A DNA stretch of 64,000 nucleotides, from assembly GCA_977862235.1 (NCBI GenBank), contig OZ374561.1:2232001-2296000 (forward strand). The letters are read 5' to 3'. Position 1 is the first letter of the stretch. Every line of letters begins with the position of its first letter. The translations under genes were made by a program, and so were the position numbers. The notes beneath the pieces are model-generated. The model was not told where the DNA came from. It ran no database searches and saw nothing but the letters and a program-made list of their open reading frames with translations. The DNA comes from Dudresnaya verticillata. Lineage: Eukaryota. Below are positions 19,822 through 58,971 of this stretch, one piece after another.

Positions 19822-20491
19822 TGTAGTGAAAACCCACGAACTCCGAGACGGACAGCTGGCCTGACTTTCCTTAACGGACGAGAGCAACATTACCTCCACG
19901 GGGTGGTAGAGCAGTTCGCACCGAGACGGGAGAACAGCTAGCGGCTAACCGAGACGGATATTGGGAAGCAACAGACAAGGGGGTGGTACAAGTGCCGGGA
20001 CGGACTCCGTAACGGTGGTGGTGGTAGACCGCAACGGGCTCGGCGCGGGGAAAACCGTAAAGGATTGGGCTAAGGTTGCTTACCCGTTTACCTTAGGAGC
20101 CGCTGCGGTGCCGCCCTGATATACAAGTCAGGGTGGCACCGAGCGGCCCGGTCCGTGGGGGCCAGACCCTAGTGGCCTGGACCCATGGTGGAATCGGCCC
20201 TGCTGGTCCCAATCTCCGACACGGACATGCGCAGCATTCTCATTGGCTGGCGCACTACTCTACATACTGTACAGATGATCACTAAAAATAAAGAATAAAC
20301 ACTACAAATACTCCGATATGGTTGGTGCGCTTCACTGCTGTACAGCAATGCGTACCGGCGTACAGCAATGCGCACGACATCCGACACAGTTACACGTTGC
20401 CAGATCATCAGCGTGGCGTATTGCCACATCATCCGTTACGGTTGGCTTGCAGTCGGCGTGCCGCGTGCGCGCCACGGCTCACTTCACCACA
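19822..20491 (-). repeat. 3' LTR of element A (670 bp)
   Basis: Minus-strand ends TGTGGTGAA...TTCACTACA; polypurine tract immediately upstream. Confidence 0.85.
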
Positions 20492-20493
20492 GA

Positions 20494-20510
20494 CCCCCCT
20501 CCTTAAATGG
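20494..20510 (-). other. Polypurine tract of element A (CCATTTAAGGAGGGGGG)
   Basis: Purine run ending 2 nt before the TG of the 3' LTR. Confidence 0.85.
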
Positions 20511-20624
20511 CGCCACGTCCTCGGGCGTCCACCGTCACGGATTACCTTTGCTTCCACACCCACACACAATCGATACGGTATCGTGCTCAACTTTTCCTCC
20601 CCCTTCGTGCGCGCTTCTCCCACC

Positions 20625-23473
20625 ATGGCAGGGGAGGAGAGCAAGCGTTCCCCTTCCCCCTTTCAACCGACACGGCGTACCCGCGCGAGCTCGACGACGC
20701 GAGCGCCAGGTGCGCCTACCGTTACGGATGCTTCGACGCAAGCGCAGGCCTCGCCCTCGGCGGTTGTGGCACCACGCACGACGAGTGGTTGCGTGGATGT
20801 TTCCGCAGCGGAACCGTCGCAGGCACTATCGGCGGGCCGCGGCTGGTCTATCTACGATCCGAATCGGTTTGCTGCTGGCCCAGCCCCAAGGAGTACCCCG
20901 TCATGGAACGTAGCGACACACCGCCGCGGAGAAGATGTGACCAAGGATGACGACGAGGAGATCCGACGTGGAGGGGAGGAGCTCAACTTGGCGGACCTAC
21001 CCGCGATTCCGTTACGGACGCCATCGACCCCAATCTCAACCCCGATGCGGAACCTGGGTGCAAGCCCATATACGTCAGGCAGTACTCCGAAACGGTCGCG
21101 GGTGCGAGTGCGGAGCACGACGCCGACGACCGGCTCTTGGATGCCAATGGCGCGTACCCGTAGCGGTGAGGGCCCTGCTCCGAGCGGATCTTGGCCGGGA
21201 CACCATTTCGACCACCGTGCGGGGCGCCCGACGAGATCCGATGCGGAACGGGCTAAGGTGACACCACCGATGACAGTGTCAAACTTCATCGAGGGTTACC
21301 CAACCGTGTTGGAAGCGCAACGATACCAAGCCGTTTCGGAGCAGCCCTTCAAGGCAAACCAGCGAATTGGTTTCGTACCGAATCGGCGGGCGTTTGTGTG
21401 GCAAAGCCGATGGGTACACAGCTACTGCCAAGAGCGCACCTCTACCGTTTCGGATTTGTTGTGGTACCGTTGCCACGGAGAAGTGGGGTATACGGCGAAG
21501 GTGAGCCGCTTGTTGGTGACGGCGTTCCGTCTACGTGGGGCGCCGATCGGGGTGCAGTTTATCTGCTTTGACCCTCCGTATGACCAGTCGGTGTATTGGT
21601 TCCGCTATGCCGACGGGTGGAAAGACGACGCGGCGACGGAACACCGATTGCGGACGCGTAACCGAGACGGAATGCACGTGGGGGCACCCATCTTGCACAC
21701 GTGGAATACCAAAGAGTTCTTCCACCTTCCGTATCGGATGCGACGTGAGCTCTACCTCACAGCTCCGCCGTGGTGGGATAAATACGAGGTAACTCGTTGG
21801 TTATCCGTGCCTACGCCTTCTGTGGTGGCCTACTTCTCAGCAGACCTGCTCACGGAGCGGGAATGGAATCGCGAACATCCGAACGGAGAGCGTTCCCCTA
21901 TCCAGGATCAACTCGATGTGCTTTGGCGCATCTTCCGATCGGAGTGGGCAATGCTGGTGCTGTTTTCGTGGCTCCAAGTTGCCTACTACGGAGTGCGGTG
22001 CAATACCAAGTTATCCGACTGGCGCTGCTTCCCGCGTGATGATGCTGACCTACCCGGAGGGGACTGTGGCCGTATCTTTCAACTTCCCGTGACGGTGATT
22101 GCTCTAATTCGCCAAGTCGGTGTAGCCGATTTGGTGACGGGGTCGGCGTACCCACTCCATCGGGTTGAGCGTCTTTTATCCGTACACGGAGAGCAGGATT
22201 GGCAACGCACTCCGGGCTTCTTGGGGTATAGTTGGGATGAGGACCGTGTCCTATCGGTGCCCCCGCTTAGGCCCGGAGTGAGTGAGCCATATTTCCTTCA
22301 TCGAGAAGACCCGCGTCCGGAATGGTTGGCATTAGAGGTGCAGGCCCATCGGTGCTATGCTCCTCGCCAAGCACCAAGGGATGCGTACCGTGACTGTTTG
22401 GACGGAGCTGAAGATTGGGGGAGCTGTCAGGAGGCAGCGGGGCGTTCGCGTACAATCGACCCGCTCGATTCCGTTACGGTGAGGCAGCAAGAGGCTGACC
22501 CCTTCTTGGAAGACCAGGAGGAGGTCATGCCCGTGGCCTCAATGGAAGCGGGTAGCGAGAAGACACCCGCTCCAATCCTTCCGGTGGCCGCGACAACCAC
22601 GTCGCACGATGTGGATCGTGAGACTCCTATTCCCGTATCGGATAAGGCCCCAACGCCCATAGGCGTGGTTGCGCCGACTATGGCGGTGCCCAAGCTTGCG
22701 GCACCATCCAAGGAGGGAGTCTCAAAGGAGCAGATCGTTTCGGAAGTGGCGCCGGATACTGTACCGGCGGCACCGTCTCCTGCAACGCAAATGCCTGCCG
22801 CCGCGGAACCGCCCCTGCCAAGTGCTCCGCTGTCGGCGCCCACTCCCGCACCAGCGGTGAGTGAGGCACCGATCACCGTATCGGCAGTGGCTGCAAAGCG
22901 CCCAAGTGTTGGGGCAACTGGAGACAAGCCCTCTTTTCTCGCGTCAAGTCATGAACCGTTACGGAAAAGCGATATCGCCTCGCCAGAGAAGGACACGGAT
23001 CCACCGCTGCGGAAGGACGTACCTTCACCCGAGTCGGGACCATCCGTATTGGTGGTTTCCTCAACGGAGCATTCACTCGAAGCCGGGGTTAGGGATAAGC
23101 CGTCGATCTCCCCGAAGGTAGAGCTTCAAGAAGATGAGGATCCCCCGTTACGGTTCCGGCTCATCTAGCCGCTACGGAAAGTGGGTTACAGGTGCTGCGA
23201 GGCATTTGCCGTACGCAGCGCTTCCCATTGCCAGGATCCGTTCAGGAAGCGCTAACCTTAGCGGAGGGGTTGATGGAACAGGTAATTCATCTCCGCGCGG
23301 TGGTCCGTCGTCAACGTCGGCGCATGGATAGTGCGATTCGCGTCTTGGGAGATGATACGCAACGCGTATTCCAGTCGGATCCGAGTGGGGAACCCGGCTT
23401 ACGAACGGGACAGGGGAGTAACGAGGAAGCTACAGTTGCCCCTGCTCCGAAGCGGCGTCGACGTACCTCTTAG
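20625..23473 (+). CDS. Antisense accessory ORF of element A, function unknown: 847 aa to 23168, plus a frameshifted C-terminus (coiled coil, KRRRRTS) to 23473
   Basis: ATG in CACCATGG context ~130 bp inside the 3' LTR boundary. Long open frame with a Trp/Tyr-rich globular core flanked by low-complexity regions. Probable frameshift in the C5 run at 23142-23146. Confidence 0.75.
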
Positions 23474-23576
23474 AGTTACAGTGCGACGATCTCCTTAACG
23501 GTTTCCATTATTCCTCGATCTTCGCTTGCGATAAACATTGTGTATTCTGCTCACGCCCCAGCACTCCAATTGTCCG

Positions 23577-26500
23577 TTACGGTGAGTGACGTGTTGGATT
23601 AGCACGTCGCCTTGGCTTACCCTTAGTGGATGTCTTTTTCTTTTGCTTCCAATATCGGTAGATGAAATTCTGCGGTAACTCCTCCGCGGGCTCAAAAGTG
23701 TCTTGATCCGGAGGGTAACCATACCAGCGGACTTTGTATGTCATCCCAGTAGGTTCGTCGCGGTGACCGACAATCTTTTCGATCACATATTCCGTATCGG
23801 CTTGCAGTGGTTCCGTCGCGGAGGGAGTAGTACCTTCTGGAGGTGGCACTAATTCTCCGTAGACGGTTGATGGCGTGACAGGCGGCACTGTTAAGGGTGC
23901 CGGCTGAACCGCAACTCCGATCGGGACCTTCGTGATGCGATCAATACTTACGGGGATCAATACCCCTTCCTTTCGGATTGTAACAACATGTTCCGTTGCG
24001 GATTCCACTTCGTAAGGCCCAGTAGCTCTCGGAAGGAGTTTCTTCATTTCCTGAGCCACCTCGCCTACATCATCCGGCTTGCCTTCCAATCGGTCCCGTT
24101 CACGGCGTTCGGCAGGCCGCAAGTTATGGGGCGGCCTGTCGACGTAGACTTGATCTCCGTTACGGATTATGAGCCTAAAGCGCACCTTACGGTCAAACAG
24201 TGCCTTGGCTTTTTGCTGAGCCACTGTTTGCTTCGTGCGCGCTGTTTGGAGCGCATACCGTAAACGGCGCATGGTACTCCGCTTATGTAGCGCCGGGGTC
24301 ATACGTCCTTCCGTAACGGTTTCTTGATGCTCGACAGGAGCCCCTCGTACAACAATGTCCGATGGGTGGCGTGTCAGCACCAAATCAAATGGCGTTGTTT
24401 CCGTAACACGGTGTACCTGCATGTTGTACGCATACGTCAACGGTTGCAGGTACAGATCCCAATCGGAATGATGATCCTCAACGTAATGGCGCAAACGCTG
24501 AGCGATTGTCTTATTAAATCGCTCAGCTTGCCCATTCGTCTGCGGATGGTAGGCAGCGGTGAGCAGGTGCCTGACTCCGAGTAAGGAACACACCGCGTCG
24601 AAGAACTTAGCAGTAAACTGCGGTCCGTCTTCGGTTAGGACAAATTGGGGTGCGCCGTAGGCGTACACCCAAAAGTCCAGAAAGGCGTTAGCCACCACAA
24701 CGGCTGTTGTTGTCCGTAACGGAATACAGCGCGTCAGCTTAGAGAACCAATGGGTTATGACCAAAACGTAGACATAACCCCGTTTTGTCTTCGGAAGTGG
24801 CCCGAGAATGTCGATAGCGACAAACTCCAAAGGTCCGCTAGCGGGGAAAATTTTCATAAACCTTTGATTCCGAAAGCGGGTTCCCTTTGTCTTCACGCAG
24901 GAGCGACATGTCCAAACGGATTCAAAGACATCGTTGGCCATATGAGGCCAATAATAATCCTGTCGGAGTGTATAATACATCTTAATTCCGCCTGGGTGAC
25001 CCGACATCAGGGTGTAGTGGGATAAATACAATACCCGTCCACGGAGCTCGCTTGGCACCACCTTCTGTAGAGCGCCATCCAATTGGGACTTGCGTACCAA
25101 GAATCCGTTACGGTCATAGTCAAACTATGATCCAGGGGAGCATACCGTATCGGCTTTGAGACGACAGAAAGGGTCTCTGGCTTGCGCTTCGAGAAACTCC
25201 TCCCTGGTAATTGTCTCATCCTTAACGTCGGATTCTTGGATTACAGTAAACCGTGACGGTATTGCGTCGGGCTTATCAGGGGAGGCGGATGCGCTCCCAC
25301 TGGCGGGCTCCATGGCGCATATTACGTTATTTTCCGTAGCGGTTTCTCGCGATGTGGCCCAATCGGTTAAATAAACTCCATGCTCATATAATCCGTCGAC
25401 GGTATTTTCGGCGATAAAGCAGGGCATCTCTTCATCCAAAGGTCTATCGTCACCACCATCCGTTCGGAGTCGCGACATCCCATCGGCGAGTTGATGCTTA
25501 ATTCCAGGATGGTATTGCACCTCAAATTCAAATTCCGATAGGCGAAGCCTCCACCTGGCTAGGCGGCCAGATGAGTCTGCGAGGTTCAGGATCCACCGCA
25601 GGGCATCGTGATCCGTTCGGAGAATAAAATTATCACCGTAAAGGTAGGGTCGGAGTGTTAACATGCTCCAGACCACGGCTAAGCATTCCTTTTCGGTTGT
25701 CGTATAATTTTCTCCGCATCGGTGAGGCTTCGGCTCCAGTATCCAATGGAGGTGATTGCCATTCGGTTGTTCCTGCAGAAGGACACAGCCGACTTGGTGG
25801 TCACATGCGTCAGTGTCCAACGTATATTTATATCCGTGACGGGGTAGAGCCAATATAGGTGGAGAGATAAGGCGTCTCTTCAGTTCCTCGAAGGCTTCAT
25901 ATTCCGTATCGGATAATATTCCAAACTCAAAGGGTGAGCCCTTGCCGGTTTTCTTATTTAGCGGAGCTGAAATCCGAGCGAAGTTGGGTACAAAGCGACG
26001 ATACACGTTACACATTCCCAGGAAGGATCGCAATTCCGTTTGGTTTGTCGGCGGCTTCGCGACCTTAACGGATTGGATATTTCTATTATCCACTTCTAAT
26101 TTTCCGGGACGGATAACATGCCCCAGGTATTGTACAGACGCGTTGAAGAAGTCACACTTTGACAATTTCAACGTTACCCCAGCGGATCGTAAAAGCGTAA
26201 GGACTTCCTTCAGGTGGTGGAAATGTTCCGTAACGGTTTTTGAGTAGACAATTACATCGTCTAGGTAGACGAGGGCAAATTGTCATTTAACCGTAGAAAG
26301 GATTATATCCACTGCCCGTTGGAAGGTTGCCGGTGCATTTTTCAATCCGAATGGCATTCTCCAAAAACGGTATAAGCCAAAATGGCTAGTGAAGGTAGTT
26401 TTGTCCCTTTCCTCTTCCGGAATCTCGACTTGCCAATATCCACTATTGCAATCCAGGGTGGTAAATACAGTAGCTTCCCCAAGGGAATCTATGCACTCAT

Positions 26501-27641
26501 CCATCCTGGGCAAGGGATATGAGTCCCTAACCGTTACGGAATTGAGCCTTCTATAGTCAACACAGAACCGCATGGTGCCGTCCTTTTTTGGAACGAAAAC
26601 CACGGGGCTGGCCCACTCCGATGAGGCTGGTTCAATTACCTTAGCGGAAAGCATGCGATCGATCTCTGTCTTTTCGAGATCTCGCTGCTTATGTCCGGCA
26701 CGGTATGGGGCTTGATATACTGGCTTAGCTCCGGGATTTAACTCGATGCGGTGCTTGGCAGCTGTAATGTTGCCAAGATCGCCACTCCACATCGACTTAT
26801 ATTCCTCGAGTAGGGTTAAAATCCGTTTGCGGAGCGATGCTTCTTCTGTGCCGATCTGGACTTGATCCTTCCAATTGGTAGTATTTGTATTTTCCGTTAC
26901 GGGTTTGCTTAGTTCCTTGTCGTGACGGGAGATGCTGCTGGCCTTTTCGGAGGTAGGGTTAGAATTAAATGATTGAATAATTCCTCCCCCCTCCTTAAAT
27001 GGAGGTATACCGTCAACGGTAAAAATAGCAGAAGGGCAGCAGTAGCGAGGTCCACGACAGTAGATTTGGGCAACCGTACCGGCTTGTTAGAAAAATTAGA
27101 GACCCAGATCCGAAACGGTTTGTTAGGTACAACATCCATAATACCATTAGCCATTAACGTAAGGTGCTTAAAAGCCGGCTTAGGATGATTTTGTAGAAAG
27201 CATAACCCACCCGTGGGGTATTAACCGTTACGGTGGCTTGAGTCATAGGGGGAATAAGGGTAGATTTTGCTAAACGAATTTTCTGAGAAACCGTAGCGGT
27301 AGAAAGAGGTGAGGGCTGTAGGGTTGCAGTGGTTCCCGTCTTCGGAATTTTGGCTTGACCAACAAGGGATACCGGTGGGTAATGATGAAAAACAACTTTC
27401 CGTAACGGAGGGAGTATTGCCTTCACGTAGCGGTCGATGAAGGTAGTTCCCAAAATACAGGGAGCCGCCAAGTTCGCGACCACTAGAAAATGGACGCGAG
27501 CACGGAGCTCTCCGACACGGACGAAAAGTTGGATCTGACCAAGAGGGCGTATAGCACGATTAGACGCATCCCGTAATTGAGGACTGGCTGCTGGGCGTAT
27601 GAGTGGGAGCTATTGGCGCGGAAGGCGCCTGGCACTAATGA
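23577..27641 (-). pseudogene. pol of element A: protease C-part, dUTPase-like segment, RT, RNase H, integrase, chromodomain (stops/frameshifts)
   Basis: WASPVVFVPKKDGTMRFCVDYRRLN, MPFGLKNAPATFQR, VYLDD (~26255-26270), TDAC, LRTDH, HHCC zinc finger, AIDILGPLP, YHPQTNGQAERFN, chromodomain EYVIEKIVGHR..YKVRWYGY..DTFEP. Confidence 0.93.
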
Positions 27642-30600
27642 GCAAAATCGGAGCGTTCCGTCTTTCCTAGGTGCAAACACCACTGGCGAGGCCCAAGGCG
27701 ATTGAGAGGGCTCGATGACGCCGTGACGGAGCATGCGATCAACCTATTCCTGTGAAAACTGGCGCTGCCGCGGCCCCGCCCTGTAGGGCGGCGAGGCAAA
27801 CGGGCGCGCGCCGGGAAGGAGGTCAATATAATGCTCCGTCGTGGTGGTTTCACCTAGGGAACCATCCCACATGGCGGAGAACCGCTGAAGTAACCGTCTT
27901 ACCCGCTCGTGGTGAGCAGCGGGTAAGTGGCTAAGGTCCACGTCGTCGACAGTTAGAGTTATCTCCTGTGCGTCCCCCGGTGAGGGGGCGTCGTTGCGGG
28001 TTGACACGTGTGTCTCGTGCTTTCCACGTTAAGTAACTCGTCCGCTTCCGTCGTCGCGATGCCCAACACATCCCCCAGCTGCACGTGGCTGGGGATGACG
28101 GCAGTGGGGTGCGGCAGGGCGGTTGCGACGACTTGCCCCTTGGGGAGCAAGCGCTTCGTCGCGGAGAAGTTCGCGACGAGTATGCGGAACGGTTCGTTCG
28201 GCGTTACTTGGGCAATCCCATTTGTGGCGAGGACGCCGTGTCGCTGGTAATGGAGTCACAGGGCTGGATGCATATTGCACCCGCCCGTTCAGTGGTGACC
28301 CGCATCCACTTCTGCGACCGCTCAGGTATTACTAACTTTTCGGCGATCCGAATTTTTGGCGACAAGCGCCCCGTGATCGAGCTAGGCTCGAGATCACTTG
28401 CGGTTAACCGCTGTGCAGCTGGGAGGTGGGAGAGTGGACGACGAGTGATGGGCACTGCTGTGCCATCGTCCATCTCTACTTCCCTTGAGCGTGGGTGGAT
28501 CTCCTCCACGAACCGGTCGCAGAAGTCGCACCCAAGTATGACGGGTGCGGCGAGCTGGTCGCACACGATGAAGTCAAGCTTCACAACGCGCCGGCCCAAG
28601 CGGACCGCAAGACCCAAGGTTCCTAGGGTCTTGATCGCGTTGTTGTTCGTATCGGCGATCTTCGGGATATTACCCGTGCGCAGCGCCTCCAGTGCGGAGG
28701 GCGCCACTTCGGTTTTCCGAATGAAGTTGGGGCCTGCCCCAGTACCGAGAACACTCAACTTCCTCGTCATGGCCGCGGTGGTGCTGCCAATGTCGGCATA
28801 CACCTTATAGTTACGCTTGGCCAAGACGAAGACTCGGTCTCTCAATTATGGGGGCCGGTAGAGCGTCTGCGCTTTGGTTTTAACACCTTTGTTTGGGTGA
28901 ACCCCTGTTGACGGAGACGACCCCTTTTTTTGGCTCGGCATTCACAGTCGCCTCCCCTGTTGGGACATGGGGAGGTGACTCCCCTGCCTGGAAAGGCGGA
29001 ACCCGGCCTAGTTTTTCGGCTCGTGGTGAGCCAGCGGGGCACGGCGAAGCACACCCGGATGGCGCTCCGACTTCCGTGCTGCGGGTGGACCCGGTGATCG
29101 AGAACGCTCCCGGGCGTTGTGTTGCTGGGCCAGGTACCGGGTGTGCAGCTGCTCAGAGTAGCTGCGCGCCGGCACTTGGGCCTGCTCCTCGTCCGTGAGC
29201 GCCTCGAAGTTGATGATGATCTGACCGCGGTCACGGTATGTGAGGGTGCAATCCGTAGCGTAGTGTCCTCGACCGTACCTCGACCGTAACACGCGTGGCA
29301 GATCACCGTTGGCCCTCGCCCTGCTGGACGTTGAGCCATCGGGCGACTTGGGCGGCGGCCCTGCCAACCGGGACGAGATCGCTCGAATCCTGGAGAATGC
29401 TCCTGAAATGCGACGCGCGGCGCGGGGATGTGCCTTGGGGCCATGGCCAGCGCCGGGTCTTCTTCCGTACCGTAACCGGTATCGGTGGGGAGGTCCGTCG
29501 TCGGGAACGACGACGTGTCCGTTCCCAGTAGGTGTAAGTCACCATCATTGTTTCGGATGACCCCGTGTTCGCGCTCGCTGCGGTCCCGGAATTCAACCGA
29601 GGATTCGGCGAGCAGCGCTTGACCACGCCCTCGCGCCGTTGAAGGCGGAAGACGGGCTCTGGCCGTAGTCGGCGAAGCGGGGACTACCCCTGGTCTGCGG
29701 GATGCACCCGTTCTTGCGCGATGAGCGTCGCCCTCGTCCTGTGCAAAGTGGACGAGGTGCTCAAAGGTGAGTTCACCTCGCCGGGTCTCTTCGCGATGGC
29801 GCGCAACAAGGGAGCGGATGGTAGGGTCCAGCCCGTCGATGAACAGAGTCATCTTCTCCCAGGCCGGGTAGACGTTGCCGCAGCGATGGCACCCTTTAGA
29901 AAGGCGCATCGCAAACGCGGACTCCGTCTCACCCGGCCGTTGCGTGGTTGCACGAAGAGCGAGGGTGGCCTCACGTATGGTGCAAGGCATCGCATACGTG
30001 CACAGTAAGTAATGCACGTCCTCCGGCCACGAGTTGATTCCACCATCTGCTCGCGATGACGCGCCGCGTACACTCCGGAACTGCTGCGAAGCAGTTCCAC
30101 GGAGGACGTTCGGGAGGGCGATGAACTCCTGGGCCTCATTCATCTCCACGGTGTCGGCCTCGTCGACAAACCTCGAGAGAAAGTCAAGAATGGGCACGGG
30201 GTCATCCCCAGCAAACGCGCAGTCGCGTAAGGTCAACTCTAGCCGCTTGATTTGGTCTTTGACCTTACCAGTTTGGCGACTCGAGCGCCTTTGGGAAGTG
30301 TCGGCCAGCCGATATGTCCTGTAGGACAGTAGCCGGTCGAACAGGGGGTTCGTGGGCGTGAGCTCCTTCAGCCCCCTGTACTTCCTTCCGCCTTTGCGCT
30401 ATTGCGGCGGGCCGAGGGGCGACCCTCGGAACCGCTGTCGGATGAATCCGAGTTATGGGAGTGATCTTCAGAAGAGGACGAGGGGACGAGTTACCGTCAT
30501 CGTGACGACTACCGCGCCTGTTCCCATCGTTTGCGCGGCCACGATCACCGCGTCCACTTCGGGTCCGGTGCTCGCCTGCGCGCCGTTCTTCCGCACGCCG

Positions 30601-31674: not shown

Positions 31675-31993
31675 AGCGCTCGCCGTCGGTTACGCGGGAT
31701 CACCCGTTCACTGGCTGTCGGCACCAACGCGCGAGCGGCTTAAAAGCTGTCCAATCTACGGGCTTGGTCCCGGATTTGGCTGCGAGTGACCTTGAAAGCG
31801 GAGGGGGCGGCGGGGCTCCGAAGTGAGCGAGCTCGCCTTGCGGCTCGAGGTAGCTGGTCTCACCATAACGCGCGTGCGTTTTGGGAGAGCCCTTGGAAGC
31901 AAGACGAAGCGGCCGACCAATCGGAAAGGTCGGCGGGGCAGGAAGAAAAGCGGGAGAACCCGACCGGACGGAGAACGCTCCAATCGGGTGGGA

Positions 31994-32011
31994 TTCTAGG
32001 TCGGGAGACCA
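31994..32011 (-). other. Primer-binding site TGGTCTCCCGACCTAGAA (probably tRNA-Tyr)
   Basis: Starts with TGG 6 nt after the LTR end; identical 18-mer at 45610 and 48795. Confidence 0.85.
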
Positions 32012-32017
32012 TAAATG

Positions 32018-45608: not shown

Positions 45609-45609
45609 C

Positions 45610-48019: not shown

Positions 48020-48793
48020 TGTAGTATAGCTGTCAGCACACTATCAGCAGCGGCTGTAAGGTATGCTGGCAGCGCCGCACTGTAATGGTGCACACGATGA
48101 CGCCCGCTGGCGAGTCGTGGTTGGGCAGCGTGCCCTTAGTTTTTTCGTTGAATTAGTAGCGGTCGACCGCATTGCTGCCGGCAGCGGCCACGCGCCGTGC
48201 CGCACACGGCGCGCCCCTGTGACGCTCTCCGGCATCGAGCCGTTGAGAGGGCCGCTGCCCGTTACGCCCCGCGCGCGCCCACGGGTAACCGTTACCCGGA
48301 CGTGTCGACACGTGTATGGGCGCGCGCTCGCACACCTCCCGCGTTGGTGTTGTGGGGTGCACCTACTGTAGAAGTAGTCGTAGTGCACATAGTGTAGGGT
48401 ATTTAAGACCGTCGGCCATCGACGGCTCAGTAAACCGGGCAAGTAACAGCTCGCGCTGAGGCTTGCCCCCAGCCTTTTCGGGTTCGATCCCTTTGCCTTA
48501 CGCCAGCGGGCGGTTTCCCTTTTCCCCCTTGCCTCGCTAGGCTTTCCCCTTTCCTTTTCCTTTCCGTCGGCTTCGTGCCGCCCTTCGACAGGGACGCTGG
48601 GATCCGGCCGCTGCCTACCCGCGTACAGTACGCCCCGTGCGCGCTCCGGCATCGACGCCGTCGATCCGCACCTGCGGGGCGCACGCGCCCGACACCGCTC
48701 TACCAACCCCAACAGCTACCCATCGACGGGTCTGTGTGGCGGCTTCGGACCGGCAAGTATCAGACGTCGGATCGATCCGACGTCTATACTACA
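48020..48793 (+). repeat. 5' LTR of Gypsy element C (774 bp)
   Basis: Perfect IR TGTAGTATAG...CTATACTACA, followed by the PBS; interrupts gag of D. Confidence 0.92.
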
Positions 48794-48794
48794 C

Positions 48795-48812
48795 TGGTCT
48801 CCCGACCTAGAA
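48795..48812 (+). other. PBS TGGTCTCCCGACCTAGAA of element C
   Basis: 1 nt after the LTR-terminal CA. Confidence 0.88.
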
Positions 48813-48860
48813 GTCGTCGAGACCCAAGTACTTCTCGCATCGACGCGATCGAAGTAAAGG

Positions 48861-51292
48861 ATGTCGAGTCCTTCTGACCCGGCCGCTGCCGCATCGGCCG
48901 CTGCCGGAAAAGTTGAGGACGCGACGCGTCGCACCTCAATACTGAGTACCATCGGCGTCTCAGGTACTCCTCTACACGATGTGAGGCTCGAGCGGAGGGC
49001 CGCGCTGCAAAAGGCCCTCGCCGGGAGTCTGGTCTCGGTGGCCGACCTCCAGCTGCTGTATGAGGAGACCATGGACTCGCTAGCCGAGGTGTACGACCAC
49101 CTTACAGCTTCAATAGCTGCGGCGAAGGCCGACGGCCAGCAAGACCTGGACACGCTTCGACGCGGTCCTTTGGCGTCCATCGAGGACGGAATAACCCGGT
49201 CACAGGGGCTCCTCGATGAGCTACGCCGCCGCGTTGAGTTGATAGAGTGCGCGCCGACGCGGCAACGCCAGCGGGCTACGGGCCCGTCGTCGGCGCAGCG
49301 CTCTCCGCCGCGACCGCAGTCACCAGCGGGTGCAGTTCAAGAATTGGCCACTGCCATACTTGCCGAGCAACGAGCTCGATATCGCTTTCCTTCACTACCG
49401 CCATCTCCACCGAGGAGTGCGGCGGGGTCGCACCATCCGAGTGGGGACCCCAATCCGTTCTACGCGGTCGACCCCAGGTTGCTCCAACAAGCCCTCGACG
49501 GGCAAAACACAAATGGGGGACCGACCCCCCAACAGCACGAGGGCCCCGTCTCTGCCTATTGGCATTGGGGCCCACTCATGGCAGGCATCGAGCCTTTAAC
49601 CACGTTGGTGCCAGAGTTCGCTAAGGCGATCGACTACCGCTCGTACCGTCTCGATGACGTAGATCAGCGGGACAATCAACAGCAGGTATGCAGCGGCAAT
49701 ACTGCGAAGATTGTCAGCCGCATGAAGGCCCTGATGCCCCGGCTCGACCGGTTCGACGGCAAGGAGCCTATCCGCCTGCTAGGTGTGCTTCAACAGCTAC
49801 GCCAAGCATTCAATGGCGTTGGACTATCCGAAGGCGCAGCGGCGCGTGTGGTGTCCTGGTTCCTCGATGGAACCGCGTCAAAGGTGTACGCGAGTCACCT
49901 GTCCTCTGGGGTGCGCACAACGCAGCGCGGCACCCCACCCTGCTGGGCCTCGGTGGTCAATACCCTCGTCGAGAGGTTCGTCACGGACGACGTCATCGCA
50001 GACCCCCATGACCGGCTGACCACCGCCAAGCAGAGGGACGCCGAGTCCGAGCTTGAGTTCGCTACTCGCCTCAAAGGGTATGCGGACGCCTGCGCCGGTG
50101 TGTACTCCGATGAGAACTTGACGCATCCGTTCCTTCGGGGCCTGCTGCCCACGACAAGACCCGCAGTGGCGGAGAAGGTCAGGCAGCTGCCTATGGTCGA
50201 ACAGACCAATTTTAGTACCGTTCGTCGGATTGCCCATAGCGAGGGCACAACCTACCGCGCCCGTTCGGCAAAGGCAGCGCAGCCTACGAACACCTCAGGG
50301 CGCGACAGGTCAGGTGGCAGCTCGGCAAGCGGCCGTACACTGCTCATCGAGGGCCCACCAAGCTATCCCAGCGGGGACGTTACTATCGACAACACAATGC
50401 TGGCACAATGCTGGTGGACCCTGACGCCGACGGGTTCGAACCCGTGATGGTCGCACCCGAGCTATCGACAGCCGGGCCGAGGCCGTTGAGATCCTCGACA
50501 TTACAGGACGCATCGACGCGGTCCTACCCAAGCGCATACCACCGCTCACTCCAACGCAGGAGGCGATGGCACGCGCAGTCATCCCTGATTGACAGGGATG
50601 GTACATCTGCTAGTTCTGCCGTGAGGTCGGTCACATCATGTATTCGTGCCCGTACCTCACGAAGGAACAGCAGGCATACTGCGCGTATGCGACCTGCAAC
50701 CATCGAATGGAAACGCAGCCGCATTCGCGCAATATGCTCCAACAGCTCATCGAAGGGCGCGCGCCAGCGGGCGCAAGGACAAGGAACCCCGCACGGCGCT
50801 ACGACGCGCCGCGGGGTGGGAACCGACGCTTCGACGCGAGAGGTCCCCCGCAGCGCATGGGCGCACCAAGGTACCGCGGAGAGCCACAGGGGTACCGCGG
50901 GGATCGTCGAGACCCACGCCGCGAGTACCGCCAAGGCGACGCACCACGGTTCCTGCTGCGCGATAAGCGGGTCGGCTTTGATGAGCCCGCCGGCCGTCAA
51001 CCTCAGGCATCGACCTCCGAGGGCTGACCCGCGCCGCGAACTGCTTCGAGCAGTTATGACGGTGCAGGAGCACACAGGCCTCACCACCGACGAGTGGCTT
51101 CCGCAAGCGCTCGATGCGCGACACAAGGGAGAAACAGCCAGCGGGCAGGGAAGCGATTCCCCTCTCCTTTTTGACACGCCTCCGCGATTGACGCGAGGCG
51201 CCTCAGGGGTTACGAAACACCCAATCGGAATCGAGTACGAAAGTTCGGATTCCGAGGATAATTCTGACCGGGTCGATCCGGAAAAAGAATAA
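48861..51292 (+). pseudogene. gag of element C (frameshifted), with zinc knuckle
   Basis: 528-aa ORF with capsid-like motifs. C*FCREVGHIMYSC knuckle near 50608-50650 and an RG-rich tail in other frames. Confidence 0.85.
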
Positions 51293-51306
51293 AGGCGGCG
51301 CCGCTC

Positions 51307-54300
51307 GTGCGGTCGCGCGCATCGTCTTGTCCAACACCAGACCCACCATCCCTTCCACCTTCGACGGCGTTGGGGGCAGCGAGCCCCCACGTCGGGCGCA
51401 GCGGCGCTTCGAAGGACACGAGCGACGTCCCGGTCGACGGGACGTCGTGGGCGGCGCGTACCAAACCGTCCTGGCCGCCGCGGCGTCGACGCAAGCGACA
51501 GGCCAGGCGGAAAGGGCGCAGCTCCCCAACGGCGGGGCAGGCGGTACCCGAAGCTCGACGCGAGGGTACCGGGGTTCCATGCATCGACGCAGAGCCGGCC
51601 ACTACCCCCGATGGGTACGTGTGCCTCCTGTCCTCCGAGATTTACCGAGTGTCCGTGTCCCTCGGTGCGGACCCGCGGGTTATGATATCCCACACCATCG
51701 CGGTGGACACCGGCTCCGGGTACAACCTCATCGCTCGAGGTGCCCTGCCCGCAGGCTGGGAGAAAAACACGTCAGAGATCGATTCCGCGCCACGCCTGGC
51801 AGGCGCCGACAAGACTCCGCTGAGGCTGTCCGGCGTCGTCCACCTCTTGATGAGGTTGGGGAACACGACGTTCCGCATGCCTTTCATCGTCGCCGAAACG
51901 CTCGCGGTCGACGTACTGATAGGCACGCAGTTTATCAACGCGCACGTGCGCGGAATCGACGTCGAGTTGAGAAGGCTGACGCTGAGGAAAGGAGGCTCGG
52001 TGCCCATCCTCAGCCGCAGGAACCCTAGCGAGGGAACCGGTCCGGCAACGCAGCCGAAGAACCCATCGAAGGGTTTGTCGAAGAAGCACAAGCGGGAGCT
52101 CCTCGATTGGGATCACGATACCCACACCATACGCCTCGCTAGGCAGGTGGTTGTCCCAGCCTACTCGCAGAGGCTCGTCTCGGTGACGTCGGGGGCTAGT
52201 GGGTTAATCCACACGGAGCCCAAACCCTCGTTGCAGTTCCGCCACGGCGTGAGACTGACCAACGGGGTGCACGACATCGAGTCGGGGCGACCCTTCGGGT
52301 TTATCTTGGGCAACTGGACGGACAAAGCCCGGACCCTACCGAAGGGTACCGTCATCGGATACGCAGCTCGAAACCCGCTCGCGATCTTGACACCCGATCG
52401 CGAAGTCGCGGATTCGTTTTCCAAGGTGCTCAAAATCTCCACGTTACGTGAGCACGACGACTCGAAGTCACCCCAAGAATCCGTATCCACGAAGGAAAAA
52501 CCTCTTACGAAGGGCGCCGCGACGGCAGCAGCCGAAGCCAATTCGAGTTCCCGCGATTGGAAAGAACGCGTAGACCTTCGAACATACCCGATGAAACTAT
52601 GCGAAACGAGGTCCTCGAGATGCTACGTAAGCACGAATCGATGTGGAACGGAGACCTCACGATCACAGCCACGGAGCATCGGATCGATCTACAACCCGGG
52701 ACTCGCCCTATTCGTTCGATGCCCTACCGTCAAGGGCCCGCAATACGTGAAATCGTCCGTAACGAGATCGACAGTATGCTCGAAGCCGGAGTAATCGAAT
52801 CAGCCACCTCGGAGTGGGCGTCCCCCGTAGTCCTCGCACCGAAGAAAGACGGAACACTTTTTTTTGCGTAGATTACCGAAGATTCAATACGAAGACACTA
52901 TCCGAGGCGTACCCGCTTCCCCGGATGGAAGATTGTATCGATTCACTCGGAGACGCTTCGATTTTCTCGACACTCGATTGTGACAGCGGATACTGGCAGA
53001 TTCCGGTTGCCCCCGAAGACCACGATAAGACTACGTTTACTTCGTTTCTCGGAACTTATCGTTATCTTCGTATGCCCTTCGGTTTGAAATACGCGCCCGC
53101 TACGTTTCAACGTGCACTCGATATCATTCTATCCGGAGTCCGTTGGCAGTGCTGTCTCGTCTACCTCGATGACGTGATCGTTTTCTCCGCGAATCTTCGA
53201 GAACACATCGCGCATCTCGATCAAGTCCTCACGCTACTTCGTAATTCCGGGGTTTCCCTCAAAATAAAGAAGTGCTTCCTTTTCCGCAAGCGAGTCGACT
53301 ATCTCGGACACGTAATTTCCCCGGGGAAGCTTAGTATGGCTGAGAAGAGCTCCGAGGCATTCCGATACGCGAAGTTCCCGAAGACCCTCACGCAAGTCCG
53401 TTCGTTCCTCGGCGCGTGTAACGTATACCGAAGATTCGTGAAAGACTTCGCGAAAATTGCGCGCCCGTTGACGAACATGACACGAAAAGACGCGGATCCT
53501 GACTACGAGAATCCCACGGAGGATCAGGTTACCGAATTCGAAACGTTCAAACGGAAGCTGGTGTCACCGCCGATACCCCGGTTACTGCAACTCGGGAAAC
53601 GCAACATCATCGATACGGACGCGTCTGCGTATCGACTCGGGTGCGCGTTGCTACAGGAGCAAGATAAAGAAGAGTTCCAACCGGTGGGCTACTGGTCTTA
53701 TTCGTTAAACGATGCCGAGAAGAACTACTCCGCAACCGAGCGCGAATGCTACGCAGCCGTATGGGCGGTTACTTCGTTAGTCCGTATATCGAAGGGACCC
53801 GGTTCACCGTACGTACGGACCACGACGCACTCCGCTGGCTTCTTTCTCTCACTGATTCGTCCGGGCGACTCACGCGATGGCGGCTGCGCTTAGCCGAATT
53901 CGACTTCGAAATCGTGCATCGCCCCGGTCGCGTCCATCAGATTCCCGTTGCCCTCTCACGATTGCTACTTCCGCATCGCGAACACCCCGCAATCGACGAC
54001 GAAGTGCCTCCGTTTGACTCGGATCACAACGCCGCAAAGCACGAAGCAAGCTTCCCAAACGACGTCGCGAAAACTATCGAAAACGCAAGAGACCCGGTTC
54101 TCATCACTACGAGATCTCTCAAACTTCAAACGAACGTTACCGCGATTCGCCACGACTCCACGCAGACGACCACGCCCGCAACACGGGTAATTCGAGGCGG
54201 CACTACGCAAAGACCCACGGAGGTCCCGAAAAATAACGCAGGTCACCATCCGCAAAGCCGCGAAGGCTGCACCCACGCACAAGACGAAGCACTACGTGAG

Positions 54301-55995
54301 GAATACGCAGGACAAAACGAGGTCTACGATGACTGCGATTTATGGGACGATATCGATGACGAGGATCCCTTTGACCTTTATCGAATCGACCCTAACGAAG
54401 AACCGCGTAACCTAACCGATGTCAAGCCCGTAGACATACCCGCGCCGATTACTGTATCCGAGATCCTCGAGGGACAGCGTATTGATTCATTCTGCCAAAC
54501 GGTGCAAGCACGACAATCGAAAACAAAGGATAGTGTCTTTCACGAAGATGGAGACGGTCTCCTGCGACGAACGTATCCGACAATTCCGAACTTAACGCAG
54601 ATCTTATTGCCCGAAACGCTCCGACCCCGGTTACTTACGCTAGCGCACCATTCGTTACTCGCTGGCCACCCGGGGCAGAATCGAATGTTCTACTCATCTC
54701 GTGAAACGTATTACTGGTCTTACATGTCTGCCGATATCGCATCTACGGTCCGAAGTTGCAAGCACTGCGCACGAAATCGGATTCGCTTACGAAGGAACCT
54801 TCATCGCTTGAAGCTCTCCCCAGCTACGCGCCCACTCGAATCGGTCGCGATTGACATCTTAGGCCCGTTTGCCACGTACGAAAGCCGGACGCAAGTTCAT
54901 CCTCGTGATTATGGATCAATTTACGAAGTGACCCAGGTGGCCACACTACGAGTAATAACCGCGTATCACGTGGCCGTTGCCTTTTGCGAAGTTTGGATAT
55001 TCAAGTATGGACCGCCAGCCTCGGTGCTCTCGGATAACGGGAAACAGTTTACTTCGAAGTTCTTTCAGGGCGTCTGACGCTTACTCGGGTTATCGAACGA
55101 GTTCACCTCCGCATATCATCCGCAAACGAATGGACAAACCGAACGATATAACCGGACTATCCTCGCGATGCTTCGTAACTACGTGAACGACCACCAAATC
55201 GATTGGGTCCGCTACGTCTCCGCGTTAACGTCTTCGTACAATTGCCACGTTCATCGGTCTACGAAGACAACTCCGTTCAATCTCGTTTTATCGCGACCGC
55301 CGCCCGAATTCACCGTGAAGCATCGCTCCCGTAAGCACCGACCGAAACCTACGGAGGACATTCGAAACGATTTCATTAAACGACTCGATGTCGCAATCAC
55401 CTCAGCAAGAGCTTCGTTACAACGTGTGCAAAACCGATACAAGCGCGACTTCGACAAAGGCATCCGACGGACGAAGAGTCGCGTCAAACCCGGATACTAC
55501 GTGTTCCTCGATACCCACGATGGGAAAACGAAACTTCCGAAGTTGAAATCCCCCGCGGAGGGGCCGTACAAAGTGCTCTTCAACGATACGCGTACACTCA
55601 TAATCGATCGCAAGGGCCTCGTTGAACGCGTCTCCGCGGACCGCTGCATCTACGCGCCACCACCTACGAATTCGCAAGCATCGATTACGCGATCCGAAGA
55701 GATAGCATAAAAGGTCAACGAAGGTCCCGAGTACGTGGTAGATCGTATCCTCGATCACTCCACCGACGAGGACGGGAAATTCGTGTTTCGTATCAAGTGG
55801 GACGGCTACGCGACACCTACGCGGGAACCTCGTACGCACGTGCCCGAAGAACTCGTTTCACGCTACTTGGCAAGGCTTCGAAGCCAAGCGGACCCGCGTG
55901 ATCCCGTGCTACTCGCCCACGAATGGCTCTCCGGCTGGGACCCCGAGTGGTTCCGTGGCCCCGACTTCGTGATCCGCAACCCGCAGCCCGAATAA
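51307..55995 (+). pseudogene. Gypsy pol (protease, dUTPase-like segment, RT, RNase H, integrase, chromodomain); C-type to ~52.4 kb, probably D-type thereafter
   Basis: VDTGSGYNLI, WASPVVLAPKKDG, LVYLDDVIVFS, DTDAS, VRTDH, AIDILGP, SDNGKQF, YHPQTNGQTERYN, chromodomain EYVVDRILDH..FRIKWDGY; multiple frameshifts. Confidence 0.93.
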
Positions 55996-57327
55996 CGCCT
56001 ACGCCCACTCGAGTTGCGCGGCACCCGAAGCTCTTTACACGAATGGCCCCGGCGCCCACTACGCTCTTGCATCACGTGCTGACTGCGCCAGCGCTCGATT
56101 GCCCCGGAGCATACGTTTGCATGGTACCGCTACGCGCCTCTCGTGAACCCCACTTCGTGATACTCGTCTCCGTCTTCCGCAACGCGCCTTCGTCGCGCAC
56201 GACCACAGCCCCGACACACACGGTTGCCTCGGAGCAGATGGCCACCACCACGCACATGGCGCTACCGCGGCTGCGCACTTCGCCCCGTGATCGCCGTCTT
56301 CGCTTCGCTAGACCCGCACCGGATTGCGTTCGCCGCCCCACTTCCCGGCCGCGCGCCGCACGACACCGAGGTCCTCGGAGACGACACGCCACCGCATCAA
56401 CGATACGCGATCACGAAGCCAATGCCTCCACGAAGTTGCGCTCCACGCCGTCGGGCGGTGTCGACCACCACCGCCCCAACTCAGCGCCCCTCGTGAAATC
56501 CGCAAAGGCGCACCGCGCGCACCCGGTTGCACCGCGGCTCTCGCATGACAGGAGCTGAAACCGCGACGGACGGACACGGTGACCTATAAGTAACTTGTCA
56601 TACGCGCCTGACGTCATACTTCGAGGCCGATGCCACCCGCAACGCGCACTTCGACTTCGCAACCCGCGCCTCACTTGCGACACGGAGCTTACCTGTTACG
56701 ACGCGCCTTCGCAATGAGCACGGAGTCCTCGTTGTCGCCAAGCGCAATCCTCTCGCATGGCCTCGGCTTCCCATTATGAATACGTTCCGCCCGCACCGAT
56801 GCGCCCCGAAGCAGCTCGTTCACGACAGCCCCGGATCTCACGCAACTTGCCCTGCGCGATCATCACAACACCCGCACAGATCTCCGAGGAGCGCGTATCC
56901 GCAACCCACCCCCCCAAGCACGTTGGCGCGGACGCCTTCGTCTTGAGGAGGGGGCCGTGCACGCATATCGCACGAAGTCTCGATGACTCAACTCCGCGAA
57001 GGAAACACGCGTAATATTATTATTAATCAACGTCACACGCATCACGAAAAACGAAGCCGTGCCACGAACAAGTCCAGATTCGCACACTTGAGCACGAAGC
57101 TCGTTTACGAGAAGCTACGAAGCTGAAGCTACGATGCTAACAACTACGTGACTATCACCACGAGGCAAAAGAAGAGTCGAGAAAGAAAAACGTTTACTCG
57201 AGACGATACCACGAGACCGAGACCCCGCCACCGTGAGCTCCGAGAACAAGGAGCTCGATACCGAAAACGAGAAACCACGCAGCTACGAAGCTAAAAGAGA
57301 ACGTCTCGGTTCTAACACTACGTACAA

Positions 57328-58971
57328 TTACGAGCGCCCATACGGGTTCGCGGAGTCGTAAGGCGGGTTATCACGAGGATCGTTTCCGTTTTCATATCGA
57401 GTCACGCGAAGGAAGTTGGGCGCATACGGATCCGATGTCTGCGATTGTCCGTCGCAACCGCTGGGTCCGAAGCCCGAAGGGCCTCCGGAGCCAGACCCGT
57501 AACGCGGAGCATCGTAACTCGGGTAACCGTAATCTTCGCGCCGACGCTTCCCGCTCAACTTGAGGTCCCGAATACGATGACGAAGGTCCGCTATCTCCGC
57601 ATCCCGATCACGAAGCTGCTTACGAAGGAGACTCAACTCCGTGACCGCGCGAAGGAAACTTCCGCCGAGATCGTCCAGCAGTTGCCGAAGAGTCCCATCG
57701 GGGGAGATGCCCGCTTCGCGACACGCGTCGCTCACGGAGTCGAGACTGCGAATATCCGTAGGACAGCACATCTCGAGACTCGCGATCGAAGACTCCGAAG
57801 CGCTCGGCACCAACGCGACAGCCCCGGTGCCAAGAGATGACCCCGGAGTCAGCAACGACGAAGGAACCGGAGCTACAGAACGAGGAACGCGCGGCAACGG
57901 ACCAACCTCGCCTCCGATGGCACGAACCGCGGCACTCGGATGCGAAAACGGATCAACTCGCGGACCACGCCCTCCTCGTGAAGGACGGTTATGGCACCAA
58001 TCGAACCAGGCCCTGGAGCCCACGTCGTGTCCGACTACTTGGGACCACTGTCCCGTCGGGAAATCGCGACGAGTCGACTGGAGCTCCCTCCGATCCGAAT
58101 CCTCGATGGCAATCGCGAGTATCTTCGTGAACTGCATCGTGCAATCCGAGCCTCGGAGCGAAAGATCCGGATACCCGCCATCCTCGGAGAACGACTTCGA
58201 CCAACGATCACGAACGAAACTACGCAACGAAGCATCGAGCACCCACACGTATTGACGCTGCGTGACATCCGAAATCAACGCGCGACCAAGCTCGAAGCGA
58301 TATTCGGAATCCCGGAAACGCACGAAGCACTTCTTCGTAGGTTCCGCAAACAGGTCGACCACGAGCCCGAAATAACGAATCACCCTCGGAGGTGGCACGA
58401 CTAAGCCCGCGGGGGCCCGAATACACGAAGCATCGAGCCAGAACGAACTCGCAAACATGCTCAGAGGCACGCGGTCATCGAGACGCTAATTCGTATCCAC
58501 GCGATCAGGCATCGAGCCCGCGCCACGGAATAGCGCCCAGTCTCTACCACCGATGTGCACTCCGAGGATGCGCGAAATCGAGTCTACGTGACGCCATACG
58601 TTTCCCGCGGCGGACTCGAACTCCGGATAATCACGAAAGCGAGTAACCGCAACCAACGGAGAATCCACGGAGATACCCGCACCCGGTGCCAGGAGCACGT
58701 GCGCACACGCATCTACGTAAGCAACCTCGTCGACCGTGGTCACGTAGGAGACATCGCACGGAAGACCCATCGGAGTCGTATACACGGGGCCACGGGGCCA
58801 GAATACGTGAAAGACTCCGGCTCCATTATCATCATGACCCTCGCAAAGTGCACGAAAACGAGCGAGATCTGGACGAACACGGCCATCGTAGGCAGCAACC
58901 TCTTCGTGAGTAACTCCGGAGATCGCGAACTCGTCCCACGCGAAGTACAGCTGCGCAGAAGGAAGCCTCGG
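57328..58971 (-). pseudogene. Antisense accessory ORF downstream of pol (family D); one in-frame stop at 58486-58488; 5'-truncated by an LTR
   Basis: ORFs 58486-59007 and 57328-58470 are in the same frame. Shares motifs with the element A antisense ORF and ends with a coiled coil and KRRR. Confidence 0.72.

What the first reader, a model, noticed from the sequence alone, without database searches (positions are those of the whole stretch)
19822..58971. Candidate self-recognition system in Gypsy retrotransposons: antisense accessory protein plus a family-specific DNA motif seeded across each element
Seen: two different chromodomain-Gypsy families (A at 19.8-27.6 kb; D at 44.8-48.0 and ~52.4-59.0 kb) each carry a large antisense ORF behind pol, and these ORFs appear distantly homologous. 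Each family is also peppered with its own short CpG-containing motif (A: CCGTANCGG; D: ACGAAG/CTTCGT) in LTR, coding and spacer DNA, in both orientations. Neighbouring elements largely lack these motifs. Established: Arabidopsis VANDAL (Mutator) elements encode VANC proteins that bind short element-specific motifs and locally remove silencing. Inference: the antisense ORF may be an analogous, rapidly diverging sequence-specific DNA-binding or anti-silencing factor whose target motif co-evolves with each family. I am not aware of such a pairing described for LTR retrotransposons, but I could not search.
Basis: partly seen in the sequence, partly recalled or inferred. Interest (0 to 1): 0.9.

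Follow-up and report, generated by a model that had tools for sequence, protein, structure and literature searches.

The report
Mini-hairpin self-tags in algal retrotransposons
A group of jumping genes from a likely red seaweed carries dozens of tiny, family-specific inverted-repeat tags through its genes, plus (where its far end can be seen) an extra backwards gene for a protein with no matching known fold, which likely reads those tags so that each family recognises its own DNA.

Summary
All five chromodomain-Gypsy-clade families in the window carry their own dispersed tag; host genes and DNA transposons do not. A's tag is CCG-N3-CGG (61 vs about 6). In B, C, D and E the tags are 11-12-bp inverted repeats whose arms covary and stop after 3-4 pairs. 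They are enriched in both orientations with no G·U bias, which points to DNA mini-hairpins. The A and D antisense ORFs belong to one family of about 90 fast-diverging proteins. AlphaFold models it confidently, with no Pfam or fold match. Algal-type contigs in another assembly repeat the pattern: 12 of 14 clade contigs show the excess against 0 of 12 other retroelements, and sister families share tags. Tags and ORF co-occur in 6 of 6 elements and are both absent in 2 of 2, but this is confounded by clade. Binding and anti-silencing are untested, so the VANC analogy is plausible, not shown. This scan earlier noted related motif-studded retrotransposons in fungi and in green-algal Copia elements.

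The parts
19817..20491 (-). Family A 3' LTR (TGTGGTG...CACCACA); 9 CCG-N3-CGG tags
20492..20504 (-). Family A polypurine tract
   Evidence: sequence
20625..23168 (+). Family A antisense ORF, 847 aa open; conserved core about 21210-22319, then a low-complexity linker
23138..23473 (+). C-terminal small helical domain, predicted coiled coil and basic tail of the A antisense gene, in a shifted frame (this copy is broken here)
   Evidence: tail profile E 0.0015
23577..27640 (-). Family A pol (protease part, RT, RNase H, integrase, chromodomain), broken by stops and frameshifts; 25 CCG-N3-CGG tags
19817..27640 (.). Family A tag field: 61 CCG-N3-CGG sites against about 6 expected, fixed sequence, no arm covariation
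27641..33000 (-). Family B 5' part (LTR end and PBS near 32.0 kb, gag, pro, start of RT; left end joined to A; right end approximate). Tag: 4-4-4 inverted repeats, 86 vs 26; N-GGG-N4-CCC-N' paired in 19 of 22
44000..44765 (+). Family E LTR fragment (left end approximate) with 6 E-type tags against 0.5
44766..48019 (+). Family D 5' LTR (44766-45608), PBS, leader and truncated gag. Tag NN-C-NNCGDA-G-N'N': 5+6 sites by strand against 0.3+0.4
48020..52290 (+). Family C 5' LTR (48020-48793), PBS, gag and pro, nested in D gag. Tags NN-C-AGCG-G-N'N' (11+6 vs 0.5+0.2) and NN-C-ATCGA(C)-G-N'N' (10+3 vs 0.2+0.1)
52291..55899 (+). Family D pol (RT, RNase H, integrase, chromodomain 55711-55899), broken; D tags in both orientations
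57328..58998 (-). Family D antisense ORF, one in-frame stop at 58486-58488; distant member of the A family with predicted coiled coil and basic tail
59275..64000 (+). Family E LTR (start approximate), gag and pol, cut by the window end. Tag CG-Y-N-N3-N'-R'-CG: 31 vs 2.0

Best explanation
Each family of this chromodomain-Gypsy clade carries a dispersed, family-specific 9-12-bp inverted-repeat tag through its LTR and genes, which likely forms a small hairpin in DNA and is likely read by the element's own antisense-encoded protein, predicted to be nuclear, so that the family would mark and favour its own copies. Shown: the tags, their covarying 3-4-bp arms, their presence in both orientations and in coding frames, their turnover between families, and the antisense protein family with its faster divergence. 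Inferred: hairpin or cruciform formation, binding by this protein, and the benefit. The most likely benefit is keeping the integrated copy or its cDNA free of host repression, as VANC does for VANDAL. Copies with more tags would transpose more, which would drive the tags even into coding sequence.
For: Tags form a diagonal table over five families, with none in host genes or DNA transposons.

Arms covary. E: symmetric 30 vs cross 7, and CGCC/CGTC crosses 0 against 10 and 8. C: outer pairs 17/18, 17/18 and 12/18, then background. D2: 37/60 vs 15.5 and 28/60 vs 15.8. D1 repeats this at 12/16 and 12/16.

Outside the antisense ORF both orientations are enriched: 108 vs 9.0 and 84 vs 7.2. G·U and C·A near-misses are equally raised, 653/553 and 754/641.

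In G001, 12 of 14 clade contigs reach z 4.4-17.7 (the two shortest 3.2), while 0 of 12 other Gypsy, RT and Copia contigs exceed z 3.0. Codon shuffles agree.

L025 and L026 have the family ORF antisense behind an intact pol. Six of 6 ORF-bearing elements are tagged (A, D, L025, L026, L028, L040). Two of 2 with a PPT directly after pol (L030, L034) are untagged.

L026 and L028 are RT sisters (96/92), have the closest ORFs and share a DGAA-loop tag (cosine 0.70). L055, in D's RT group, shares D's tag at 3.5 vs 3.4 per kb, with at most 0.94 elsewhere. Their pol is 74% identical but their ORFs 38-43%.

The core has many conserved Arg, Trp and Tyr residues, and the ORFs end in basic tails.
Against: No binding or chromatin data exist, and no known nucleic-acid-binding fold or family was matched.

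ORF and tag are confounded by clade. The two ORF-less controls belong to a distant group, and no complete ORF-less member of the clade was seen. L027 is strongly tagged (z 11.7) and has 2.1 kb behind pol with no long ORF, but also no PPT, so it is undecided. The 3' ends of B, C and E are not in the window.

Family A shows no covariation, so one recognition mode may not fit all families. Stems of L033, L038 and L055 extend somewhat further (pairing 0.37-0.50 beyond the core). Predicted DNA folding energies are weak, with medians of -1.3 to -3.9 kcal/mol. Even spacing is seen only in A, not in B, D2 or E.

CpG o/e of about 1.0-1.7 in the elements gives no sign of methylation-driven decay. An unchecked scan note (e1-7572074) reports motif loads in fungal relatives that lack their antisense gene.
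Confidence: 0.45

Rival explanations
1. The tags are self-recognition signals read by a core element protein (Gag with its variable N-terminal extension, integrase-chromodomain or RT) on genomic RNA and minus-strand cDNA, as with dispersed packaging signals. The antisense ORF is then a separate clade trait.
For: Tag and ORF are confounded by clade. The spacers are hairpin-loop sized. L027 is tagged with no ORF in 2.1 kb. Unchecked notes describe strand-specific hairpins in Copia elements.
Against: Both orientations are enriched in LTR, gag and pol (108 vs 9.0; 84 vs 7.2), and there is no G·U excess. An RNA-only signal should be one-sided. Gypsy and Copia elements with the same core proteins have no tags.
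Confidence: 0.24
2. The tags are a neutral mutational footprint: clade-specific template switching or fold-back repair during reverse transcription makes short near-palindromes perfect.
For: Template switching naturally makes arms covary. Stems extend a little in L033, L038 and L055.
Against: Loop words are fixed and family-specific (AGCG in 22 of 62 sites with a stem in C, background elsewhere). Stems stop sharply at 3-4 pairs in B, C, E, L025, L026 and L028. A's fixed, evenly spaced sites influence its amino-acid sequence (rank 6-7 of 448).
Confidence: 0.11
3. The tags are layered sites of ordinary homodimeric DNA-binding specificities, past and present, with a conserved spacing; no hairpin forms.
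For: A behaves like a homodimer site, tolerating one-sided mismatches (CCT 18 vs 6, CCA 13 vs 7.5). Spans are about one helical turn.
Against: In C, D, L026 and L028 the fixed part is an asymmetric loop and the arms are free but paired (20 of 61 and 25 of 51 fully paired against 1.6% expected). Mixtures of symmetric words do not give this.
Confidence: 0.1
4. Host factors read the tags (transcription factors co-opted as dispersed enhancers, or a defence system being evaded).
For: The elements depend on host transcription; nothing here excludes a host reader.
Against: Tags are absent from 17 kb of host genes and from other transposons. They differ between close families, with reciprocal CTTCG/CATCG changes at 2 aligned D/C sites. 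They are not concentrated in LTRs.
Confidence: 0.1

Closest known systems
VANC proteins and target motifs of Arabidopsis VANDAL (Mutator-like) transposons (PMC5735166, passages read; PMC13547354, passages read)
   Same: A transposon-encoded, fast-diverging protein and a short family-specific motif at high density in the element. VANC21 is predicted to dimerise through a coiled coil.
   Different: VANDAL is a DNA transposon. Its motifs are plain sequences, mainly non-coding, same-orientation and built by tandem repeats. Here they are non-tandem, inside coding frames, in both orientations and mostly defined by arm pairing. No VANC-like or MAIN-like family match was found. Binding and anti-silencing are proven for VANC and untested here.
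Antisense additional ORFs between pol and the 3' LTR (aORF-3R): maize Grande gene23, rice RIRE2, Retand TRP28 ORFs, Botrytis Boty (PMC7264820, parts 1-2 of 3 read; PMC11963269, passages read)
   Same: Same position and orientation; unknown function; a nuclear or DNA-binding role has been suggested.
   Different: A different protein family (no PF04195 hit) in a chromodomain clade of likely red algae. The parts read report no element-wide tag.
Dispersed packaging signals of single-stranded RNA viruses (MS2, STNV, HBV; recalled, no paper read)
   Same: Many small stem-loops with a loop consensus, spread through coding sequence.
   Different: Those act on one RNA strand and tolerate G·U. These tags are enriched in both orientations with no G·U bias.
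[quoted passage not shown]
   Same: Family-variable palindromes able to form hairpins in an LTR retrotransposon.
   Different: Confined to the LTR cis-region of a Copia lineage and linked to siRNA targeting; not element-wide 12-bp tags in coding DNA.

Membership tests
VANC/VANDAL anti-silencing system | Host element is a Mutator-like DNA transposon | tested here: not met
   RT, RNase H, integrase, chromodomain and LTRs
VANC/VANDAL anti-silencing system | Protein belongs to the VANC/MAIN-related family | tested here: inconclusive
   No Pfam hit for the core or for 91 alignment members beyond coiled coils; no fold match. A missing match does not exclude a remote link.
VANC/VANDAL anti-silencing system | Short motif at high density, specific to the family | tested here: met
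VANC/VANDAL anti-silencing system | Motifs mainly non-coding, same orientation, in tandem repeats | tested here: not met
   51 of A's 61 sites lie in the antisense-ORF and pol regions; both orientations are enriched; site flanks are unrelated
VANC/VANDAL anti-silencing system | Protein binds the motif and removes silencing marks | not testable with these tools
   No binding, ChIP or methylome data
aORF-3R antisense accessory genes of Gypsy elements | Long ORF antisense to gag-pol between pol and PPT/3' LTR | tested here: met
   A and L025 (ORF starts beside the PPT); antisense behind pol in D, L026 and L028
aORF-3R antisense accessory genes of Gypsy elements | Conserved across families, not a one-off capture | tested here: met
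   90 representatives at E<=0.001; five near-identical G. chorda genes; four ORFs in G001
Retand TRP28 antisense ORFs | Transposase_28 (PF04195) domain | tested here: not met
   No hit
aORF-3R antisense accessory genes of Gypsy elements | Transcribed from its own antisense promoter; nuclear protein | not testable with these tools
   No sequencing run was listed; basic tails suggest nuclear import only by inference
Chromodomain-bearing Ty3/Gypsy elements | RT-RH-IN order with a C-terminal chromodomain | tested here: met
   Chromo E 3e-11 in A, 2e-7 in D, 3e-4 in L025
Dispersed RNA packaging signals | Stem-loops confined to the genomic RNA strand, tolerant of G·U | tested here: not met
   Both orientations enriched; no G·U bias

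The most novel reading that the evidence does not exclude
A red-algal retrotransposon clade encodes a protein of new fold that recognises its own DNA by structure: 12-bp mini-hairpins with a family-specific loop, written into every gene on both strands. Protein and tag co-evolve family by family to shield the element from host silencing. This would be a shape-coded, retrotransposon counterpart of VANC.
Probability: 0.3. Interest if true: 0.93.

Novelty: new variant of a known kind. Interest (0 to 1): 0.85.

Why it matters
Antisense genes between pol and the 3' LTR have had no known function for decades. Here one comes with a concrete, family-matched candidate target, so binding can be tested directly with swaps between families. 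Covarying, strand-symmetric mini-hairpin tags inside coding DNA did not turn up in ten literature searches (listings only, open-access library). If a protein reads them, it shows how a retrotransposon tells self from competitor at the DNA level, and adds a fold with no current match. The tags also work as family barcodes for annotating fragmented algal repeats.

Tried and rejected
No whole genome is held for the window, and no sequencing run was listed (no evidence either way). Copy-level conservation and expression were therefore not tested.

Word-indexed homology searches found nothing for the A core or for D, and only one known member for the alignment. Scans of viral contigs found no relative, nor did a pol scan of genome contigs. 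All 19 metagenome pattern hits were chance. D's ORF found no close relative in G001. Contigs continuing L027 and L038 were not found.

Fold searches gave no match: best Z 2.9 for the core, none at Z>=2 for its N-half, and no Foldseek E<=0.001 in PDB or BFVD. PDB sequence search best E was 0.1; the Atlas gave no usable hit. None of this proves a new fold. Complex prediction of a dimer was not available.

Reading tags back from protein sequence alone ranked A's tag 6-7 of 448 but missed B and E and gave a false high in a host gene, so it was not applied to homologues. My guess that L040 and L041 are one element was not supported (no overlap, cosine 0.07). The C-terminal profile did not score D above shuffles (12 of 1000 equal or higher).

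Rejected: low-order composition or codon usage as the cause; general palindrome richness; a regional genome effect (tags switch at element junctions); CpG as the defining feature. Five short contigs of the 31 fetched (L042, L043, L044, L047, L054; 1.1-1.5 kb) were left out. Some of the 14 clade contigs are pieces of one element (L035+L038; L053+L039+L037), so they stand for about 11 elements. Supplements of the cited papers were not read.
Full report
Setting. The window is eukaryotic: intron-poor host genes fill 1-17 kb (hemerythrin-CHY-RING, JmjC, SpoU, Obg, PRA1) and a nest of transposons follows. No genome is held. The only named homologues of the antisense protein that give an organism are Gracilariopsis chorda genes (30 of 90 representatives were looked up), so the host is likely a red alga (inference). 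Five Gypsy pieces are present. A is the 3' half with pol, antisense ORF and LTR, joined at about 27.64 kb to the 5' half of B. D is split by a nested C, with the switch back to D at about 52,290. E appears as an LTR fragment and a 5' half. B, C and D share one primer-binding site. A and D both have chromodomains.

The observation. CCGTANCGG occurs 28 times in A and once elsewhere. Codon-preserving shuffles give 1.4 where 24 are seen; the sites fall in all three frames and are more evenly spaced than random. The full motif is CCG-N3-CGG, 61 against about 6: 9 in the LTR, 1 in the leader, 26 in the antisense-ORF region and 25 in pol. ACGAAG is 41 against 10.9 in D2 and is part of CGDAG, 77 against 36 in pol and 52 against 22 in the antisense ORF. 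The neighbours are not blank: B has GGG-N4-CCC (22 vs 3), E has CGC-N5-GCG (23 vs 3-4), and C has CAGCGG and CATCGA. A family-wise null puts A, B and E far beyond chance (log10 p -38, -12 and -10 against null minima of -3.5 to -4.6). Tc1, MULE and other regions stay within it; the one host outlier is TAC-N-GTA.

What the tags are. In four of five families the arms covary. In B the bases flanking GGG-N4-CCC are complementary in 19 of 22 sites against 7.6, and 4-4-4 inverted repeats number 86 against 26. In E, symmetric half-site pairs number 30 and crosses 7; CGCC and CGTC arms occur 10 and 8 times with their own partner and never crossed. In C the loop AGCG is closed by C-G and by further pairs of any sequence in 17/18, 17/18 and 12/18 sites, then falls to background. 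In D the loop NNCGDA is closed by C-G plus two free pairs (37/60 vs 15.5; 28/60 vs 15.8), and D1, not used to define this, repeats it (12/16, 12/16). The full tags give a diagonal table across families and survive codon shuffling. A is the exception: fixed arms, one-sided mismatches tolerated, no covariation. At two aligned leader sites D has CTTCG where C has CATCG; the few alignable B/E and A/E sites are never shared (0 of 3, 0 of 3, 0 of 3, 0 of 4).

The protein. A's ORF is open for 847 aa. Its C-terminal domain continues in a shifted frame to 23473. A search of 1.84 billion representatives gave 90 hits over residues about 190-560 at 24-43% identity, among them five near-identical G. chorda genes on different contigs, as expected of a transposon gene (inference). 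The layout is a core, a low-complexity linker, a small helical domain with a predicted coiled coil, and a basic tail. BLASTP does not link A and D. A profile built without either scores D at 15.8 bits against a maximum of 5.1 in 1000 local shuffles, and ranks it first after A in the window (E 0.0012; earlier versions). AlphaFold models the core at pLDDT 88.7, pTM 0.90, mostly helical. No Pfam, PDB or BFVD match was found for it, and no PDB match for its N-half. Conserved positions are rich in Arg, Trp and Tyr, compatible with nucleic-acid binding but no proof.

Independent test. A search for the shared primer-binding site hit two contigs in a bacterial assembly, G001, which holds many intact retroelement contigs, presumably algal contamination. 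L025 and L026 have gag, pol and a family ORF of 853 and 1007 aa on the opposite strand behind pol. L028 has a cut one, 38% identical to L026's, and L040 is an ORF-only contig. Blind scoring of 4-bp inverted repeats gave z 4.4-17.7 in 12 of 14 clade contigs (about 11 elements; the two shortest scored 3.2). It gave at most 3.0 in 12 other Gypsy, RT and Copia contigs; five short contigs were not scored. Codon shuffles confirm this within gag, pol and the antisense ORFs. L030 and L034 have a PPT directly after pol, so no ORF, and no tags. L026 and L028 are RT sisters with 74% identical pol, 38-43% identical ORFs and a shared DGAA-loop tag. L055 falls in D's RT group and carries D's tag at the same density. 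Against the link: L027 is strongly tagged and shows no long ORF in 2.1 kb, but the contig ends before any PPT (spacers elsewhere are 0.1-1.7 kb); the ORF-less controls are a distant group, and their branch was drawn open (90/84).

DNA or RNA. Outside the antisense ORF, asymmetric-loop tags are enriched in both orientations (108 vs 9.0 and 84 vs 7.2; loop words were chosen from the same data, pooled over strands). G·U near-misses are no more raised than C·A. Stems end abruptly at 3-4 pairs in B, C, E, L025, L026 and L028, and less abruptly in L033, L038 and L055. This fits recognition in DNA, where one inverted repeat offers a hairpin on either strand, better than an RNA packaging signal. The hairpins are weak on their own, so a protein would have to stabilise them (inference).

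Mechanism. Most likely the antisense protein, made from a promoter in the 3' LTR and imported into the nucleus (both inferred by analogy with Grande gene23, PMC7264820), binds its family's tags along the integrated element or cDNA and keeps it active. Copies with more tags would spread more, driving tags into coding frames. [quoted passage not shown] I give this reading 0.45; a core protein as reader 0.24; a mutational footprint 0.11; layered homodimer sites 0.10; host factors 0.10.

Comparison and novelty. It would work like VANC/VANDAL (PMC5735166, passages) but is not a member: it is a retrotransposon, its tags are coding, non-tandem and two-directional, and no protein relationship was detected. 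In position the gene is an aORF-3R like those of Grande, Retand and Boty, but of a different family. Ten literature searches listed nothing on element-wide covarying tags or on this protein in red-algal retrotransposons; only listings and the passages named were seen, in an open-access library. Unchecked notes of this scan describe palindrome-studded fungal Gypsy elements with accessory genes and strand-specific hairpins in green-algal Copia elements, so the theme may be widespread; those notes are leads, not support.

Verdict. The tags and the protein family are real and replicated in a second assembly; their functional pairing is plausible and directly testable but not shown. Interest 0.85; new variant of a known kind.

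Noticed in passing
window 1-17200 and LTR/leader regions (e.g. 20265, 32423-32491, 44235, 48364): TACAGTA/TACTGTA is over-represented in host DNA (10 vs 0.8 in 1-17 kb) and recurs in several LTR regions; possibly a host promoter or terminator element.
   Followed up: partly
window 17285-19461: Tc1/mariner element with about 210-bp terminal inverted repeats (95% complementary) and a broken transposase; no tag excess.
   Followed up: partly
window 33078-36919 (-): MULE transposase region preceded by several ORFs without Pfam hits; no motif excess.
   Followed up: partly
window 37012-41052 and 42991-44427: Unannotated ORFs, one weakly trypsin-like (39063-39872), and a Harbinger-type DDE_Tnp_4 ORF. 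Eight E-type tags lie in 33-44 kb (vs 1.6), clustered near 41.5 and 43.9 kb.
   Followed up: no
window 27640 and 52290: Two chimeric junctions (B RT to A protease; C to D RT). The tag type switches sharply at each, so tags can map recombination points.
   Followed up: partly
window 55900-57328: 1.4-kb spacer in D between chromodomain and antisense ORF, with a PPT-like purine run near 56945; D's 3' LTR is missing from the window.
   Followed up: no
window 44826-45046 and 45909-46118: Short tandem duplications in D's LTR and leader (about 90-130-bp and 104-bp units).
   Followed up: no
G001 (L020-L055) and G073 (contigs C116, C153, C184): Bacterial genome assemblies contain intact eukaryotic Gypsy and Copia contigs, presumably host contamination; 2 of 201 genomes searched had such integrase hits.
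   Followed up: partly
L027:1-2127: Strongly tagged clade member with 2.1 kb behind pol and neither a long antisense ORF nor a PPT; the key undecided test case.
   Followed up: partly
window D tags (52291-59050): CGDAG matches the C-GNA-G core of very stable DNA mini-hairpins (recalled), but the covarying pairs here enclose a six-base loop instead.
   Followed up: partly
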